Part shown: positions 11,587-20,758 of the stretch, piece after piece | Layout: the number at the start of each line of letters is the position of its first letter | Position numbering within the stretch: the first letter of the stretch is position 1 | NCBI GenBank assembly: GCA_963799775.1 | Contig: CAWCYD010000003.1 | Location: 768,001-832,000, forward strand | Origin: an uncultured archaeon | GTDB lineage: Archaea; Thermoproteota; Nitrososphaeria; Nitrososphaerales; Gagatemarchaeaceae | Direction of reading: 5' to 3' | Length of the DNA: 64,000 bases | The notes under the pieces: model-generated | The model's database searches: none | Seen by the model: only the letters and a program-made list of their open reading frames with translations | What the model was told of the DNA's origin: nothing | Position numbers and translations under genes: made by a program

Positions 11587-11719
11587 TGGCGGGCCCGGAG
11601 AGATTTGAACTCTCGATCTTCGGCTTCGGAGGCCGATGCCCTGATCCGTGCCAAGGGTGAGGTTCTCGGTGCCATGCTCATTTCCCCATCGCGGACGGCG
11701 GTGCCTAGGCTACGGGCCC
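11587..11719 (-). tRNA. tRNA-Arg(CCG) with 54 nt of extra sequence in the D-loop, encoded CCA
   Basis: GGGCCCG/CGGGCCC acceptor, TCGGC-CTCCGAA-GCCGA anticodon arm, GAGAG-TTCAAAT-CTCTC T arm; insertion about 11651-11704. Confidence 0.88.
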
Positions 11720-11777
11720 TAGTTCGCCGGGAAGAAGGATGATAGATAAGTCTGCGTGGAGACACAGGGAGGAGCGC

Positions 11778-13063
11778 TTGACAGATGTCAACCTCGTCAA
11801 TAACCTCTGGGTCCTGATATGCGGTCTCCTCGTATTCTCCATGACCGTTTCCGTAGGACTCCTAGAGATCGGCGAGCTGGGAGAAAAGTACTCGAAGAGC
11901 CTCCTCAAGACGCTTCTCATATCAGGGAGCGCGATATTCTTCATGGCCTTCGTGGGATTCAATACGGCGTTCGCGCCCACCGTTAGCGGAATCATCGGGA
12001 ACCCGCTGTACGACGGCGGCGTCTTCTTGGGGGGATTTTCTTCCACCACGACCGGCCTGCTCAGCGGCGTATGGTGGTCCATGGACACTGGTTACTTCTC
12101 GACTGGTCTGACAACCGGCACATACTTCATCTTCGAGACCCATTCGCAGCGGTAACCCTCGCGCTCGTCGGGGTCGTCGTCTTGAGGAAGATGAAACTCG
12201 AAGCCTTTCTCGCCTATTCCGTGGTCTACTTCATCGTGATCTGGAGCTTGCCGGCCGCGTGGATATGGAACCCCACCGGTTGGCTCTTCCTCTTGGGGGT
12301 CAGAGACTTCGCGGGAGGATTGGTCGTTCATGGCGCGGCCGCGGCCGCAGGGCTCGCCATAGTCCATCGCATCTGGAGGGAAGAGAAGAGCAAGGGACTC
12401 ACCGAGAGCGCCGTGGTCGAGACAAATGTGAATCCAGCTTGGTTGACCCTTGCGGTTCTTCTCCTGTGGATTGGGTGGTTCGGGTTCAACCCAGGGAGCG
12501 TCCTTGCATTCAATGCTTCAGCGATGACCGTAGTTCTGACGACTTTCTTGGCCGCCGCAGGCGCCTTCCTTTCAGTGATGTTCTTCCGATACATCACGAC
12601 GAAGAAGAACCCAGACCTGATCTACGCAGACAACGGGATATTGATGGGGCTCATTGTGATAACTCCGCTAGCCGGATTTGTGAGCCCGGCGAGCGCGGTC
12701 ATCCTCGGCATAGTCGCTGGGCCCCTGTTTCTGGCCGGGCAGAGATTGCTGTCCAGGTACAAATGGTTCTGCGATCCCGTTGGACTGTTTTCCGGACACA
12801 TGCTCGGCGGACTCTTCGGCCTGATGATGATAGGCATCTTCACGCAGAATGAATTCGCTGCCTCGTCGGGGAACGCCGCCTTGCCGAACGGGCTGCTCTT
12901 CGGAGGCGGCTTGGCGGCGCTTCATCAGCTGGGGCTCGAAGCCCTCGCTGCAGTTGTGGTCGTTGCAGCGGTCTTCGCAATGACCTACGTGACACTGGAG
13001 GTCATAGCTTGGGCAATGCACGGCATCACCACGGACTACAGAAAGGAAGGGCTGGCTCCCTGA
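11778..13063 (+). CDS. amt: Ammonium transporter, frameshifted near 12140
   Basis: DFAGGLVVH, WIGWFGFNPGS, D.VG.F.GH..GG; RBS GGAGG before TTG 11778. Confidence 0.9.
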
Positions 13064-15576: not shown

Positions 15577-15672
15577 AGCCCGTTCGTCTAGTGGTCAAGG
15601 ATAGGGGCCTCTGGAAGCGCTCAACGCGTTTGGAGTTAGCCCTTGACCCAGGTTCGAATCCTGGACGGGCTA
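15577..15672 (+). tRNA. tRNA-Gln(CUG) with canonical 37/38 intron (15615-15637, 23 nt)
   Basis: AGCCCGT/ACGGGCT acceptor (A1-U72), anticodon CTG, BHB helix CTCT/GGAG with bulges GGA and TTA. Confidence 0.93.
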
Positions 15673-15825
15673 CCTCCTCAATTCTAGCTCTATTTGCCCA
15701 GAATAGCCTGATACTGGATGTATCGCCATAACGGGTCTTATATCATAGGTATTTGCCGCGTCTGGACGGGCAAGCTGGCTAGGCGGCCTGGTTGGGCCAT
15801 AAGATGTCGCAAGCCCTCGAGAGTC

Positions 15826-16575
15826 TCATTTCCACTTTGTGAGTATCTCTTCCCTCTTGAAGGTGGCTACGCTCAGAGAGAAGAGAAGCAGGTCGACCAC
15901 CAGGAAAATGCCGGACATGATGAGCAGATTGATCGTGGTCAATTGAATCACACCGATCTCGGTCATCACGTAGATGATGATGAAGGGGAAGAAGATCACC
16001 CCGGTGAACTGCTGTACGCTTCGAACGTCGTTGGCGCGTGCGGATAGGATGACAGTCAGCTCGATGGAGAGTATGCTCGCGAGCGGTGCGAGGACGAGAA
16101 GGCTCACTCCGATGCTCCAGTTTGGATAGAAGAGATACCCTAGCCCGGCGTGAGTGATCAGGTCTATCAGGACCATAAAGACTACCGAGCTAGCCCAGAT
16201 TGCGGCAATCGGTGGGACGAATGAAGCGATGATCTTTCCCAGCAGAATCTCACCATCTGTCATGGGCGTTGCAAGCAGAGGTTCGAGGCTCTTCTGGACC
16301 TTCTCGCCGACTATGCTGTACGAGGCGATTCCAGCTGGGAGACTCGCCGCTAGAATCACGTACCAGAAGGAAAACGCGTTCAGAAATGGAGCAACGGATG
16401 CGGATATGGTTCCTGTGCCAGCAACGCTTTCGATCGCAACAAGTACCGCGGGAAATCCCAAGGCAATACCGAATGGGGACACTATCGTGGCGTAGAGGAC
16501 CCCCTTCCTCCTCTTGAAGATCTCGAAGTCCTTTGATGCGACCGACCACGCGCTCTGCAAGTCCATTTCTATCAC
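15826..16575 (-). CDS. ABC-2 type permease
   Basis: SIVGEK..KSLEPLLATPMTD.EILLGK motif, multiple TM segments. Confidence 0.88.
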   Translation of the reverse strand: MIEMDLQSAWSVASKDFEIFKRRKGVLYATIVSPFGIALGFPAVLVAIESVAGTGTISASVAPFLNAFSFWYVILAASLPAGIASYSIVGEKVQKSLEPLLATPMTDGEILLGKIIASFVPPIAAIWASSVVFMVLIDLITHAGLGYLFYPNWSIGVSLLVLAPLASILSIELTVILSARANDVRSVQQFTGVIFFPFIIIYVMTEIGVIQLTTINLLIMSGIFLVVDLLLFSLSVATFKREEILTKWK

Positions 16576-17492
16576 TGGCTCCTGACCAGCTTCAGGTACA
16601 CATCCTCCAGAGTTGAGCTCGCCTCGGTAACGAACTGGATGCGACCCCCCGCAGCTCCGATTGCACTGATGATGTCAGGGTTCTCCTTCTCAGGATCACT
16701 CACTCCTATGATGAGCTTGTTGCCTTCGCCCGCCTCGACATTACCGGTTGCGACCTTCTTCGCTGCAGATATGATTGCGTTGTTGACGCTCTCGAGCTGG
16801 ACCACAATCTTCCTGCCGCTCGCCGACCGTTCGAGCTCGGCCGGGGTGCCCAGGGCCATCAGCTTGGTGTTCAGTATCGCGATCCTGTCGCAGATCCTTT
16901 GCGCCTCGTCGAGATTGTGCGTGTTGAGGAAGATGGTCTTCTTCTCTTTCTTCAGTTCCAGGATAAAGTCTCTCACAGTCTTCGACGCTTCCGGGTCGAG
17001 GTTGGCCGTCGGCTCGTCCATGAAGAGTATCTGCGGATCATGAATGAGAGCGCGCGCTATGGCAAGCTTCTGCTTCATTCCCTTGGAGAAGGTCCCTGCC
17101 AACAGATCCCTCTTGTCCCACAAACCAAGCAGCTTGAGGAAGTATTCTATCCTCTCTCTTCTCTTTGCTTCATCGACCTTGTAGTATCTGCCGTAGAAAT
17201 CCAGGTTCTTGTAGGCTGTGAGTTCCTCGTACAGACCAACGTTGTCTGGGACCAGTCCGATGATCCTCCTTATCTTTTGCTGGTCCGCGCTGTTTCCAAT
17301 GTCATAGTCGCCAATCCTGGCCGTGCCGCTCGTCTTCGATATCAGACATGCCAGCATCCGTATGGTGGTGGTCTTACCGGCACCGTTGGGACCGAGAAAG
17401 CCGAAGACTTCCCCCTCGTCGACGCGGAGGGTCAGGTCGTCGACCGCAACAAGGTCTCCGAACTTCTTCACGAGGTTCTCGGTCTCAATCAA
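16572..17492 (-). CDS. ABC transporter ATP-binding protein
   Basis: GPNGAGKTT, FSKGMKQKL, MDEPT, NTH. Confidence 0.92.
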   Translation of the reverse strand: MIETENLVKKFGDLVAVDDLTLRVDEGEVFGFLGPNGAGKTTTIRMLACLISKTSGTARIGDYDIGNSADQQKIRRIIGLVPDNVGLYEELTAYKNLDFYGRYYKVDEAKRRERIEYFLKLLGLWDKRDLLAGTFSKGMKQKLAIARALIHDPQILFMDEPTANLDPEASKTVRDFILELKKEKKTIFLNTHNLDEAQRICDRIAILNTKLMALGTPAELERSASGRKIVVQLESVNNAIISAAKKVATGNVEAGEGNKLIIGVSDPEKENPDIISAIGAAGGRIQFVTEASSTLEDVYLKLVRSQ

Positions 17493-17805
17493 CGACAGTT
17501 GGCCCTATTCGTTGGCAAGATGCGATATATACATGGGAGCGCCCGAGCCTCATGGCCTGACGATTCTTAAGATGGCAGGTTGGATTCGTACCTAATCGGG
17601 CGCGGACCCTTGACGTGCTATCATCAGCCTACCTACATTGTCCCCGCTCCGGGCAGGTTCGGGAATTGAAATGAAGTGACAACGGCGATTAGTAACCTTG
17701 TCAACAGACTGATCCCTTGGCGACAATGTCGCGAAAGCGTTGAAAAACAATGTGAGAGAGGACTCCTCCACTAAACAGATTAACGCTCGCTCTTACTGAC
17801 TGAAC

Positions 17806-17931
17806 ATGTTGTCCATGGAGCCCGATGCTGTTTGTTGCGTTCACGGAGTCTCTGTGGCTCAGTCTTGCGGGATTTGCGAGTTCATGGCCGGGCGCGACAG
17901 AGCTAAACCTACGACGACCGAAGCTGTCTAG
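17806..17931 (+). CDS. 41-aa putative Zn-binding microprotein (not in ORF track)
   Basis: MLSMEPDAVCCVHGVSVAQSCGICEFMAGRDRAKPTTTEAV; CxH-x7-CxxC. Confidence 0.45.
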   Translation: MLSMEPDAVCCVHGVSVAQSCGICEFMAGRDRAKPTTTEAV

Positions 17932-17964
17932 AGACCGGAAACAAAGATGTTCAGGCTGGTTATG

Positions 17965-18179
17965 GGCTCGGTCGTGTCCCCAGCTGGCCACAGGTATAGC
18001 GTAAACTTGGCCAAGCACGGGGGCCTTTGGAGCCCTTGACGTAGGTTCGAATCCTTGCCTGGAACCCGCCCGTCAGGCAGACTACCTTGCAGAACCCGCT
18101 CAAGGACGAAGACCTGGTGGCACCACAAGTATTGACCTGGGACAAATCGAACCAAGGGTCTCGAATCCTGGACGAGCTA
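17965..18179 (+). tRNA. Multiply interrupted tRNA-Gln(UUG)-like gene or pseudogene
   Basis: Intact core GGCCAAGCACG-GGGGC-CTTTGGA-GCCCT-TGAC-GTAGG-TTCGAAT-CCT at 18009-18055; acceptor halves GGCTCGG (17965) and CGAGCTA (18173) separated from it by insertions. Confidence 0.65.
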
Positions 18180-18237
18180 CTCATCTCATCGATTCGAGAG
18201 CGCTCAAGGCCTAGCGAAAGTCTGAGCGCGAACGCCC

Positions 18238-18399
18238 TTACAGTTTCTTCCTTACCTTTTGGGCCCCCTTCTTGACGTCTCTTCCTGCGGTCTTGACCGC
18301 ATTCTCGGCCTTCTTCCCCGCCTTCTTTACATCATGCCCCGCGGCGTCGAGGTCACGTTTTGCAGCTGATTTCATTCCCTTCCTTGTAACCATGCGCAT
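18238..18399 (-). CDS. 53-aa Lys/Ala-rich basic microprotein (not in ORF track)
   Basis: MRMVTRKGMKSAAKRDLDAAGHDVKKAGKKAENAVKTAGRDVKKGAQKVRKKL; TATA-like CTTAAA about 20-25 nt upstream. Confidence 0.65.
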   Translation of the reverse strand: MRMVTRKGMKSAAKRDLDAAGHDVKKAGKKAENAVKTAGRDVKKGAQKVRKKL

Positions 18400-19889: not shown

Positions 19890-20758
19890 TCACTTGGCGT
19901 TCTTGTGGGAGATCCCGAGGGCCTCCCAATAGGCCCCGGGCGTCCCGATGTCTATCCAAGACTCGTCGACCCTGAGTTCCACACCCATCACCTTCTTCCC
20001 GAGCTTAAGCAGCCTCGCGATCCCGTCCGTGAGCTGAAGCTCCCCACCGACGCCGGGACCGGCCTCCTGGATCGCGTCAAAGATGCTGTGCCTGAAGAGG
20101 TAGACCGGGGTGACCGCCAGGTTCGACTTTGGGGACGCGGGCTTCTCCACTATCTCGTCGATCGCGACGACGCCTTTGGAGACCCTCCCTGTGGCGACGC
20201 CGTATTTCCTCGGGTCGACCACCCTCCTCAAGGCCAAGGCGCTCTCCGCCCCGTTCTCGAACGCCGAGAGGAGGCGCCTTAGGTGCCCGTAGTTGACAGC
20301 GTAGACGTATGCGTCTCCTGCGTGGACCAGAAAGGGTCCTCGCCCGCGAAGACCCTCGCTTGGAGGACCGCGTGCCCGAACCCCAGGGGGACAGGTTGGT
20401 TCACCCACATGATGCTCGCCTGGTCCACTCGCCTATAGAACCTCTCGAGGGCGGAGGCTATCGCGGATGACGAGGCGGGAGAGGCTTCTCGGGCCGTGAG
20501 CCTCCTGAGGTAGTCCTCGTCAGGCGTGAAGTGGTCCTCGATGGCCCGCTTTCCCCGTCCAACGACGAAGAGGAACTCCCTTATCCCAAAGTCGAAGAGC
20601 TGCTCGAAGACGAGCTGGACCAGGGGCTTGATGCAAAGCTCCCCTCCTTCGCTGGCGAAGATCGGCAGCATCTCCTTGGGCTGGACCTTGGTGGCGGTGA
20701 GTAGTCTAGTGCCTAGCCCCGCGACAGGGATGACAGCCTTGATGTCCTTGGCTTTCAT
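19890..20758 (-). CDS. UTP--glucose-1-phosphate uridylyltransferase-like NTP transferase, frameshifted
   Basis: VIPVAGLGTRL..ATK.QPKEMLP, Q..PLGFGHAV; YGV, VEKP, GELQLTD, WIDIG in second ORF. Confidence 0.87.

What the first reader, a model, noticed from the sequence alone, without database searches (positions are those of the whole stretch)
17965..18179. tRNA-Gln(UUG) in four pieces that reassemble into a full cloverleaf
Seen: joining 17965-17977, 18003-18055, 18084-18086 and 18173-18179 gives GGCTCGG TC GTGT AAACTTGGCCAA GCAC G GGGGC CTTTGGA GCCCT TGAC GTAGG TTCGAAT CCTAC CCGAGCT A, with all four stems paired. The one mismatch of the distal att-like repeat is the base that pairs with T4 of this tRNA. 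These junctions do not form canonical BHBs. Two other BHB-like motifs do exist (GGCC/GGCC near 21/22; TTCG/CGAA at 59/60), but splicing them alone does not give a clean tRNA. The 5' insertion can also pair with the 3' one (TGTCCC/GGGACA; GCCAC/GTGGC). Inference: either a tRNA with several nested introns at rare positions or a decaying relic. UUG is needed to read CAA codons, so if this is the only copy it must be processed.
Basis: partly seen in the sequence, partly recalled or inferred. Interest (0 to 1): 0.75.

Follow-up and report, generated by a model that had tools for sequence, protein, structure and literature searches.

The report
Broken tRNA-Gln copy among att-site debris
A glutamine-tRNA look-alike that can be pieced together on paper is most likely a dead gene fragment lying among leftovers of old DNA insertions, while the working copy of that tRNA sits elsewhere in the genome.

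Summary
The four pieces are at the stated coordinates, and when joined all 21 stem pairs form. The "multi-intron tRNA" reading is not supported.

[quoted passage not shown] The same test recovers real canonical and non-canonical introns in this genome.
- **The 3-nt "exon" carries no information.** Sixteen triplets in the 117-nt gap would fit. ARAGORN accepts the product without it.
- **The last piece belongs to something else.** It lies in a 44-58-nt repeat block (18137-18180) that ends in the tRNA-Gln 3' end. The block recurs downstream of tRNA-Gln genes in this genome and its genus, at sites with no tRNA body.
- **An intact tRNA-Gln(UUG) exists.** It lies at contig C3:216150-216243 and has one 17-nt intron with a BHB.

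Best reading: a decayed tRNA-Gln(UUG)-type pseudogene inside an array of att-type remnants downstream of tRNA-Gln(CUG). This is an ordinary finding of low interest.

The parts
15577..15674 (+). Resident tRNA-Gln(CUG) with a canonical 23-nt intron. It heads the array, and ArgRS lies upstream.
   Evidence: ARAGORN. Rfam 48.2 bits. BHB with H 4/4 and h 7. The ArgRS-tRNA-Gln(CUG) order is kept in relatives.
15826..17492 (-). ABC-2 permease and ABC ATPase operon, lying between the tRNA gene and the first att-type remnant.
   Evidence: Pfam. A paralogue 71-76% identical lies at C2:202.9-204.7 kb among att copies. In G017 the homologue lies beyond a type-1 block.
17574..17622 (+). Type-2 att-type remnant. 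It ends in a decayed tRNA-Gln 3' end: CCTTGACGTGCTA where relatives have CCTGGACGGGCTA.
   Evidence: 84-87% identical to L093 7684-7733, L093 5835-5873 and L094 4189-4226.
17965..17977 (+). 5' piece of pseudo-tRNA X: acceptor 5' strand, positions 8-9 and D-stem 5' strand.
   Evidence: 10 of 13 identical to tRNA-Gln 5' ends of relatives. It starts with G1, whereas 30 of 30 relatives' Gln genes start with A1.
17978..18002 (+). 25-nt insertion in the D arm of X. It has no BHB.
   Evidence: H at most 2 of 4 at all three equivalent junctions in both layouts. Short-read contigs of related strains lie across it: two without gaps, the third with gaps only upstream at 17945 and 17961.
18003..18055 (+). 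Core of X: D loop, anticodon arm (UUG), variable region, T-stem 5' strand, T loop, then CCT.
   Evidence: 89% identical to the Gln(UUG) genes of G024 and G008. Rfam tRNA gives 27.3 bits over 17990-18063.
18056..18160 (+). 105-nt filler between two copies of the 9-nt direct repeat TCGAATCCT (18047-18055 and 18161-18169).
   Evidence: No BHB at any of the 10 equivalent junctions of the 114-nt insertion. The fold shows a long helix with 1-nt bulges only.
18137..18180 (+). Type-1 att-type block: GGGACAAATCGAAC, 10 nt, then GAATCCTGGACGAGCTA.
   Evidence: 84% over 58 nt to C2:207468-207521 and 83% to C2:198375-198421. Copies lie in G017 (L092 12021-12063, L094 3430-3472) and G020 (L093 4895-4935, 8511-8553).

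Best explanation
The locus is debris, not a working gene. Downstream of the resident tRNA-Gln(CUG) gene (15577-15674) lies an array of att-type remnants. These are short blocks that end in a copy of the tRNA-Gln 3' end, as left by repeated site-specific insertion of genomic islands into tRNA-Gln genes.

The order in the window is:
1. tRNA-Gln(CUG)
2. ABC operon
3. type-2 remnant (17574-17622)
4. a 0.5-kb segment holding pseudo-tRNA X
5. type-1 block (18137-18180)

X is a tRNA-Gln(UUG)-type sequence (5' piece 17965-77, core 18003-55). It carries a 25-nt insertion in its D arm. Its T arm is cut after CCT, and the nearest fitting 3' end is the tRNA-like end of the type-1 block 114 nt downstream.

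Shown:
- the homologies
- the repeats
- the lack of splice motifs
- the intact Gln(UUG) elsewhere

Inferred:
- X is not transcribed or spliced.
- The blocks are recombination scars.
- X was either a target gene hit by an insertion that later shrank to 105 nt, or tRNA-like DNA carried by an island.

CAA codons are read by the tRNA-Gln(UUG) at C3:216150-216243.
For: None is found for the simpler 114-nt insertion either.
 - Control 1: 5 of 10 ARAGORN intron calls gave H 4/4 with h of 5 or more at shift 0, and the genuine Gln(UUG) intron gave H 4/4, h 1, h' 2.
 - Control 2: a BHB-then-ARAGORN pipeline rebuilt 4 of 6 non-canonical loci (Gln UUG, Asp GUC with two strong BHBs, Glu UUC, Lys CUU).
 - For X, about 2.04 million combinations of up to three BHB-supported introns gave no product with a canonical tRNA-Gln acceptor and T stem. 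This rests on inspecting output that was cut.
 - No BHB-supported junction within 400 nt completes the T stem.
2. **An intact Gln(UUG) exists** at C3:216150-216243. It has a full cloverleaf after removal of a 17-nt intron at 10/11. The same intron position is seen in G012 and G017. An 8/8 A+T box lies upstream.
3. **Piece 4 lies in a block repeated at sites with no tRNA body.** C2 has 4 core copies, and copies lie downstream of tRNA-Gln(CUG) and tRNA-Gln(UUG) in G017 and G020. In G017 the type-1 block closes a 10.6-kb segment between tRNA-Gln(CUG) and the ABC homologue. The window's sequence just 3' of the tRNA (15675-15716) matches G017 DNA beyond that block.
4. **X is atypical for tRNA-Gln.** It has G1 where 30 of 30 relatives have A1, a 12-nt D loop that ARAGORN rejects, and no clear TATA-like box (6/8 A+T, against 7 or more in 16 of 24 real tRNAs; weak).
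5. **Related strains break the proposed stems.** In soil-metagenome contigs of related strains (about 90% identity), T17975C occurs in 3 of 3 contigs and would break D-stem pair 11-24. C17967G occurs in 1 of 3 and would break pair 3-70 if the partner is unchanged.
6. **No orthologous locus** was found in 40 relatives' genomes. One weak G019 match proved to be chance.
7. **Three different completions of the core exist:** Paper cloverleaves are therefore cheap here.
Against: - The 5' piece and the att-block 3' end pair at 6 of 7 positions, including T4-A69. Both bases differ from every other Gln gene or att copy seen. My rough chance estimate is 2-3%, made post hoc, and T4-G69 would pair anyway.
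- The anticodon loop and T loop of X are intact.
- This genome really does carry D-loop and T-loop introns in working tRNAs, for example Asp GUC, so the positions as such are not odd.
- The stretch 17719-18017 is kept at about 90% in related soil strains. That shows persistence, though not function.
- No integrase was found next to any block examined, so 'att site' rests on repeat anatomy alone.
- My BHB test is strict (3-nt bulges, 4-bp helix), so unusual relaxed motifs would be missed.
- The assembly shows two split genes nearby, so indel errors in parts of the locus not covered by other contigs cannot be excluded.
Confidence: 0.8

Rival explanations
1. X is a living tRNA-Gln(UUG) gene with two or three introns (D arm 13/14, T arm, and possibly a 3-nt micro-exon). 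They are removed by the (alpha-beta)2 splicing endonuclease through relaxed or sequentially formed motifs.
For: All 21 stem pairs form in the four-piece product, and 19 of 21 form without the micro-exon. ARAGORN calls both as tRNA-Gln(ttg) once the D loop is 11 nt or shorter. There is a T4-A69 match. This genome has bona fide multi-intron tRNAs with D- and T-loop introns. Up to three introns per gene and nested introns are known in Crenarchaeota and Thaumarchaeota (PMC8450103 and PMC4090602, passages read).
Against: There is no BHB or half-motif at any junction in any order. The micro-exon is uninformative. Piece 4 belongs to a repeat block that exists without tRNA bodies. An intact Gln(UUG) exists elsewhere. 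X has G1 rather than A1 and a 12-nt D loop. Substitutions in related strains break the proposed pairs. No orthologue was found in 40 genomes.
Confidence: 0.05
2. X is a contiguous tRNA-like element (17990-18063) or island-borne tRNA mimic that still has a role. It could be a recombination target or arm for island integrases, or a tRNA-like RNA, rather than a decoding tRNA.
For: Infernal aligns 17990-18063 end to end to the tRNA model with 6 of 7 acceptor pairs, at 27.3 bits. X sits between two att-type remnants. X is closer to Gln(UUG) genes of other species (89%) than to the resident copy (78%), which suggests foreign origin. About 90% conservation of 17719-18017 is seen in related strains.
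Against: The score is below Rfam's cut-off. The T stem has only 3 pairs and the D stem has a mismatch. ARAGORN finds nothing. No integrase lies nearby. No second copy of X was found in this genome or in the 40 relatives searched.
Confidence: 0.07
3. Assembly artefact. The locus is a chimera or carries indel errors that hide an ordinary intron-containing tRNA.
For: Two nearby genes are each split into two overlapping ORFs: the ammonium transporter at 11739/12071 and the nucleotidyl transferase at 19890/20279. Genome completeness is 81.67% despite only 3 contigs. Both facts fit indel errors.
Against: Independent short contigs from two soil metagenomes lie on 17857-18017. Two have no gaps, and the third has gaps only upstream at 17945 and 17961. 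Other tRNA genes and their BHBs in the same assembly are clean. An error would have to affect three junctions at once.
Confidence: 0.03

Closest known systems
Multi-intron and non-canonical-intron tRNA genes of Thermoproteales and Thaumarchaeota (Sugahara et al. 2007/2008 as cited in PMC4090602; tRNAscan-SE 2.0, PMC8450103; passages read)
   Same: A tRNA body is interrupted in the D arm and T arm. The organism is a Nitrososphaerota archaeon whose real tRNAs carry such introns.
   Different: Those introns carry BHB, hBH or HBh' motifs at each junction. None is found here. No micro-exon of 3 nt is part of that description in the passages I read.
att sites and arrays of integrated elements at archaeal tRNA genes (Krupovic et al. 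2019, PMC6563490, passages read; She et al. 2002/2004 as cited there)
   Same: Direct repeats equal to the 3' part of a tRNA gene, and reuse of the same tRNA target giving arrays. Thaumarchaeal att sites are short (median 17 bp, as short as 8 bp). Here the repeats are 20-nt and 9-nt, with several blocks in one orientation.
   Different: No integrase or other mobile-element hallmark gene was found in the segments examined. The array also contains a near-complete tRNA-like body, not only 3' fragments.
tRNA pseudogenes (low-scoring, truncated or non-cloverleaf tRNA-like loci, as described for tRNAscan-SE in PMC8450103)
   Same: Clear descent from a tRNA, a sub-threshold covariance-model score (27.3 against 29 bits), a broken T stem in the contiguous reading, and a functional copy elsewhere.
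   Different: The anticodon and T loops are still perfect, and a fitting 3' end lies 114 nt away.

Membership tests
BHB-spliced multi-intron archaeal tRNA gene | Exons reassemble into a standard cloverleaf | tested here: met
   21 of 21 stem pairs in the four-piece product, and 19 of 21 without the micro-exon. The 12-nt D loop makes ARAGORN reject the exact product.
BHB-spliced multi-intron archaeal tRNA gene | BHB (or hBH/HBh') motif at every exon-intron junction, directly or after removal of another intron | tested here: not met
   H at most 2 of 4 at all junctions, shifts and orders. The 114-nt alternative has H 4/4 at only one shift, with no flanking helix. The MFE fold shows 1-nt bulges only. 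Controls pass.
BHB-spliced multi-intron archaeal tRNA gene | Mature product keeps the isoacceptor's conserved features | tested here: not met
   X has G1 where 30 of 30 Gln genes of relatives have A1-U72. Its D loop is 12 nt, against 9-11 nt in the six relatives' genes. The role of A1-U72 in Gln identity is recalled, not tested.
BHB-spliced multi-intron archaeal tRNA gene | Orthologous split gene in relatives, with covariation | tested here: not met
   Not found in 40 relatives' genomes. The G019 hit is chance. Changes at 17975 and 17967 in related strains break pairs. Two metagenome scans found 0 hits.
BHB-spliced multi-intron archaeal tRNA gene | Spliced RNA product | not testable with these tools
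   No RNA run listed.
att-type scar of an element integrated into a tRNA gene | Direct repeat identical to the 3' part of the target tRNA gene, in the same orientation | tested here: met
   18161-18180 matches 15654-15673 at 19 of 20 positions. The type-2 remnant at 17574-17622 ends in a decayed copy.
att-type scar of an element integrated into a tRNA gene | The repeat bounds a segment that is absent at the same site in a relative | tested here: inconclusive
   In G017 a 10.6-kb segment lies between tRNA-Gln(CUG) and a type-1 block, where the window goes straight on to the ABC operon. For the window's own segments no closely related empty site is available.
att-type scar of an element integrated into a tRNA gene | Integrase or other mobile-element genes inside the segment | tested here: not met
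   The five PF00589 hits in the genome all lie elsewhere. Pfam and PHROGs find none in L011 and L092. L093 ORFs were listed but not scanned.
tRNA pseudogene | tRNA descent, a disrupted cloverleaf in the genomic sequence, and a functional isoacceptor elsewhere | tested here: met
   89% identity to Gln(UUG) genes. 27.3 bits, below the 29-bit cut-off. The contiguous reading has acceptor 4/7 and T 3/5 pairs. An intact copy lies at C3:216150-216243.

The most novel reading that the evidence does not exclude
X is a living tRNA-Gln(UUG) whose D-arm and T-arm insertions are removed without any recognisable BHB, possibly with a 3-nt micro-exon. The 3' exon would be a recombination scar shared with genomic islands, so that island integration created a split but still functional tRNA gene.
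Probability: 0.04. Interest if true: 0.8.

Novelty: new member of a known kind. Interest (0 to 1): 0.15.

Why it matters
As it stands, it matters little. It is one more tRNA-derived relic at an integration hot spot. It does show how easily a cloverleaf can be assembled on paper where several tRNA-like fragments lie together.

It is useful as an annotation warning. In this soil Nitrososphaerota lineage both tRNA-Gln genes are followed by arrays of tRNA-like repeat blocks, and many real tRNAs escape standard finders because of non-canonical introns. Missing isoacceptors should therefore be sought with BHB-aware tools before exotic processing is invoked.

If X were shown to be processed after all, it would be a splice substrate outside the BHB rule. 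That would be of real interest.

Tried and rejected
- **ABC operon as island cargo: rejected.** I first read 15675-18160 as one integrated element with the ABC operon as cargo. In G017 the ABC homologue lies beyond the type-1 block, and the window's post-tRNA sequence matches G017 DNA beyond that block. An older nested island remains possible.
- **Decayed contiguous 3' end: downgraded.** I considered CCTTGCCTGGAAC (18053-65) to be X's decayed original 3' end. Only 5 of the 10 letters after CCT match, and the pairs are poor (acceptor 4/7, T 3/5).
- **Second 5' piece: not pursued.** AGCCCGATGCTGT at 17819-31 matches the genuine gene's 5' end at 11 of 13 positions. Other short tRNA-like bits lie in 17581-17893. 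These are near noise: shuffles give 1.6 such segments per region.
- **Permissive BHB scans: uninformative alone.** They give many chance hits (21 strict hits in 65,182 tests; long lists), so only the specific junctions count. One strict hBHBh' (17968|18021) would delete the D arm, and its outer helix is four G-U pairs. I take it as chance.
- **ORF 17701-18018 (-): not a gene.** The 105-aa ORF has no Pfam family. Its only match outside G000 in 41 genomes was one weak hit.
- **Codon periodicity: dropped.** A hint of third-position periodicity appears in the differences of related strains (18 of 34 at one phase). That frame has four stops.
- **G019 match: chance.** The 56-nt match at 75% has no tRNA core or synteny beside it.
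- **No RNA holder listed.** The two DNA runs held only 6% of the words. Laid, they cover 17719-18059 in short pieces and nothing from 18097 to 18260.
- **Pattern scans found nothing:** Metagenome contigs 0 hits twice and viral contigs 0 hits.
- **Downstream synteny could not be compared.** Relatives are too distant; ArgRS identity is at most 76%.
- **Not used:** protein-structure, complex and atlas tools, which were not relevant.
- **Paper supplements** were not consulted. Table S2 of PMC6563490 may list tRNA-Gln targets.

Full report
**What is there.**
The window is G000:C3:768001-832000, from a 2.47-Mb, 59% G+C, three-contig archaeal genome. Named relatives found with its ArgRS are uncultured Nitrososphaerota from soils and peat, near 'Ca. 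Gagatemarchaeum' (record titles).

Standard finders see nothing at the locus:
- ARAGORN finds 2 tRNAs in the window, neither of them here.
- Rfam at gathering threshold finds 3 tRNAs, none here.
- At a lax threshold Rfam's tRNA model matches 17990-18063 at 27.3 bits, under the 29-bit cut-off.

Joined in a script, the four pieces give 21 of 21 stem pairs.

**Which pieces are real.**
- **Core (18003-18055).** It is 89% identical to intron-free tRNA-Gln(UUG) genes of G024 and G008. It is only 78% identical to the resident Gln(UUG) gene.
- **5' piece.** It matches tRNA-Gln 5' ends at 10 of 13 positions.
- **3-nt piece.** It carries no information. Any [AG][CT][CT] would do, and there are 16 in the 117-nt gap, including ACC 7 times. 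ARAGORN accepts the product equally with the micro-exon or with the att block's own GGA. In both cases it does so only if the D loop is shortened to 11 nt or fewer.
- **Last piece.** It lies within 18161-18180, a 19/20 copy of the 3' end of tRNA-Gln(CUG) at 15654-15673. More widely, it lies within a block, 18137-18194, that is 84% identical over 58 nt to C2:207468-207521.

**The repeat blocks.**
Two block families end in the tRNA-Gln 3' end.
- **Type 1** reads GGGACAAATCGAAC, 10 nt, then GAATCCTGGACGGGCTA. It occurs in the window (18137-18180), twice on C2, twice in G017 and twice in G020.
- **Type 2** reads GGATTCG.ACCTAATCGGGCGCGG..CCCTGGACGGGCTA. It occurs in decayed form at window 17574-17622, and in G020 and G017.

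On C2, four exact-core copies lie in one orientation between 198 and 210 kb with no tRNA body upstream. A fifth partial match lies near 195.4 kb.

In G017, tRNA-Gln(CUG) is followed by a 10.6-kb segment encoding TetR, SDR, a P-type ATPase, PIN, HxlR and an esterase fragment. The segment is closed by a type-1 block, and a homologue of the window's ABC permease comes next. The window's sequence just after its tRNA (15675-15716) matches G017 DNA beyond that block.

G017's tRNA-Gln(UUG) has introns at 10/11 and 37/38. It is likewise followed by a partial 3' duplicate and by blocks of both types.

This is the anatomy of repeated site-specific insertion at tRNA-Gln genes, as described for thaumarchaeal integrated elements: 39 of 68 defined elements sit in tRNA genes, att sites are short, and arrays form by reuse of a site (PMC6563490, passages read).

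No integrase was found in the segments I scanned, and the five PF00589 hits of the genome lie elsewhere. 'att-type' is therefore an inference from repeats.

**Splicing test.**
I coded the BHB as a 4-bp helix flanked by two 3-nt bulges, each cut after its second base, in both possible layouts.

Controls:
- Five of ten ARAGORN intron calls gave H 4/4 with an outer helix of 5-7 bp at shift 0.
- Trp gave H 3/4.
- Four others (Cys, Pro UGG, Ser CGA, Met) did not fit. ARAGORN's intron placement there is probably wrong.
- The non-canonical intron of the genuine Gln(UUG) gave H 4/4, h 1, h' 2.
- A pipeline that removes BHB-supported introns and then runs ARAGORN rebuilt 4 of 6 non-canonical loci: Gln UUG; Asp GUC with two introns of h 4/h' 2 and h 5/h' 4; Glu UUC; and Lys CUU. 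Arg was ambiguous, and Asn was not recovered with its anticodon.

Results for X:
- Every junction of the three proposed introns has H at most 2 of 4, at all equivalent shifts and with the other introns present or removed.
- The simpler 114-nt insertion between the two TCGAATCCT copies has H 4/4 at one shift only. That is the palindrome TCGA, and it has no flanking helix.
- The local fold is a long helix between the two T-arm-like copies with 1-nt bulges.
- About 2.04 million combinations of up to three BHB-supported introns gave only ARAGORN calls with makeshift D arms and 3' ends. None that I saw had a tRNA-Gln-like acceptor and a full T stem, but the output was cut.
- No BHB-supported junction within 400 nt completes the T stem.

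**The working gene.**
C3:216150-216243 is a tRNA-Gln(UUG) with A1-U72 and all stems paired. It has one 17-nt intron at 10/11 with a relaxed BHB and a strong A+T box upstream. G012 and G017 have the same intron position.

X differs from every Gln gene seen:
- It has G1, where 30 of 30 have A1.
- It has a 12-nt D loop.
- It has a GTAGG T-stem strand.
- Its upstream A+T box is weak. This is weak evidence, because 8 of 24 real tRNAs are no better.

**Relatives.**
None of the 40 other genomes searched has the 5' piece and insertion next to a Gln core. The one 75% match, in G019, has no tRNA beside it.

Short contigs from two soil metagenomes, about 88-95% identical, cover 17719-18017. T17975C occurs in all three contigs that cover that position, and C17967G in one. 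Both would break proposed pairs (11-24 and 3-70). Two of the three contigs have no gaps, and the third has gaps only upstream at 17945 and 17961. This argues against indel error in that part.

**What stays unexplained.**
- T4 (17968) and A69 (18175) both depart from all other copies, and they pair.
- X is nearer to foreign Gln(UUG) genes than to the resident one.
- Infernal's contiguous alignment of 17990-18063 has 6 of 7 acceptor pairs.

The history could be either of two things. X may have been a target tRNA gene hit in its T loop by a type-1 island that later shrank to 105 nt. Or X may be tRNA-like DNA carried by an island. I cannot decide between them.

**Verdict.**
X is a relic within an att-type array (confidence 0.8). 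A living multi-intron tRNA has a probability of about 0.05. Multi-intron tRNAs and nested introns are already known in Thaumarchaeota (PMC8450103 and PMC4090602, passages read). Even the optimistic reading would be new only because of its lack of BHB motifs.

Noticed in passing
whole genome G000; e.g. C2:194083-194285 (-), C3:120579-120801 (+), C3:1121809-1122036 (-); window 11598-11653 (-): Many tRNA genes carry non-canonical or multiple introns. ARAGORN finds 18 tRNAs without introns and 32 with introns allowed, and Rfam finds 27 over its cut-off. tRNA-Asp(GUC) has a D-loop and a T-loop intron, both with strong BHBs. tRNA-Glu(UUC) and tRNA-Lys(CUU) have two D-arm introns each. tRNA-Arg in the window has a long D-loop intron. 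A full BHB-aware tRNA census of this lineage was not done.
   Followed up: partly
G000 C2:195400-210060 (-); L011: Four exact and one partial copy of the tRNA-Gln(CUG) 3'-end core lie in one orientation with no tRNA body upstream. They are interleaved with SDR, TetR, ADH, MarR, HTH_10 and a paralogue of the window's ABC operon. In tblastn that paralogue's permease matches in two pieces that meet at L011 9315/9318.
   Followed up: partly
window 11739-13063 (+) and 19890-20758 (-): The ammonium transporter is split into two overlapping ORFs (Pfam profile 1-90 and 94-376). A nucleotidyl transferase is split likewise (profile 1-72 and 103-238). These are either real frameshifts or indel errors of the assembly. 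Genome completeness is 81.67% with only three contigs.
   Followed up: partly
window 15577-15674 compared with L007, L012, L013 and others: The resident tRNA-Gln(CUG) has a canonical 23-nt intron, as does G020's (L093). The same gene downstream of ArgRS is intron-free in the 24 named relatives in which the scan found it, out of 30 loci scanned. This indicates recent intron gain or loss within the genus.
   Followed up: no
G000 C3:120689-121776 and C3:9052-10626: Two of the five tyrosine-recombinase (PF00589) hits lie within about 1 kb of tRNA genes: tRNA-Glu(UUC) at 120.7 kb and a weak tRNA hit at 10.5 kb. These are candidate intact integrated elements.
   Followed up: no
window 17968|18021: A formally strict hBHBh' (H 4 bp, h 4 G-U pairs, h' identical to the D stem) would excise 52 nt including X's D arm. 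It is probably chance.
   Followed up: no
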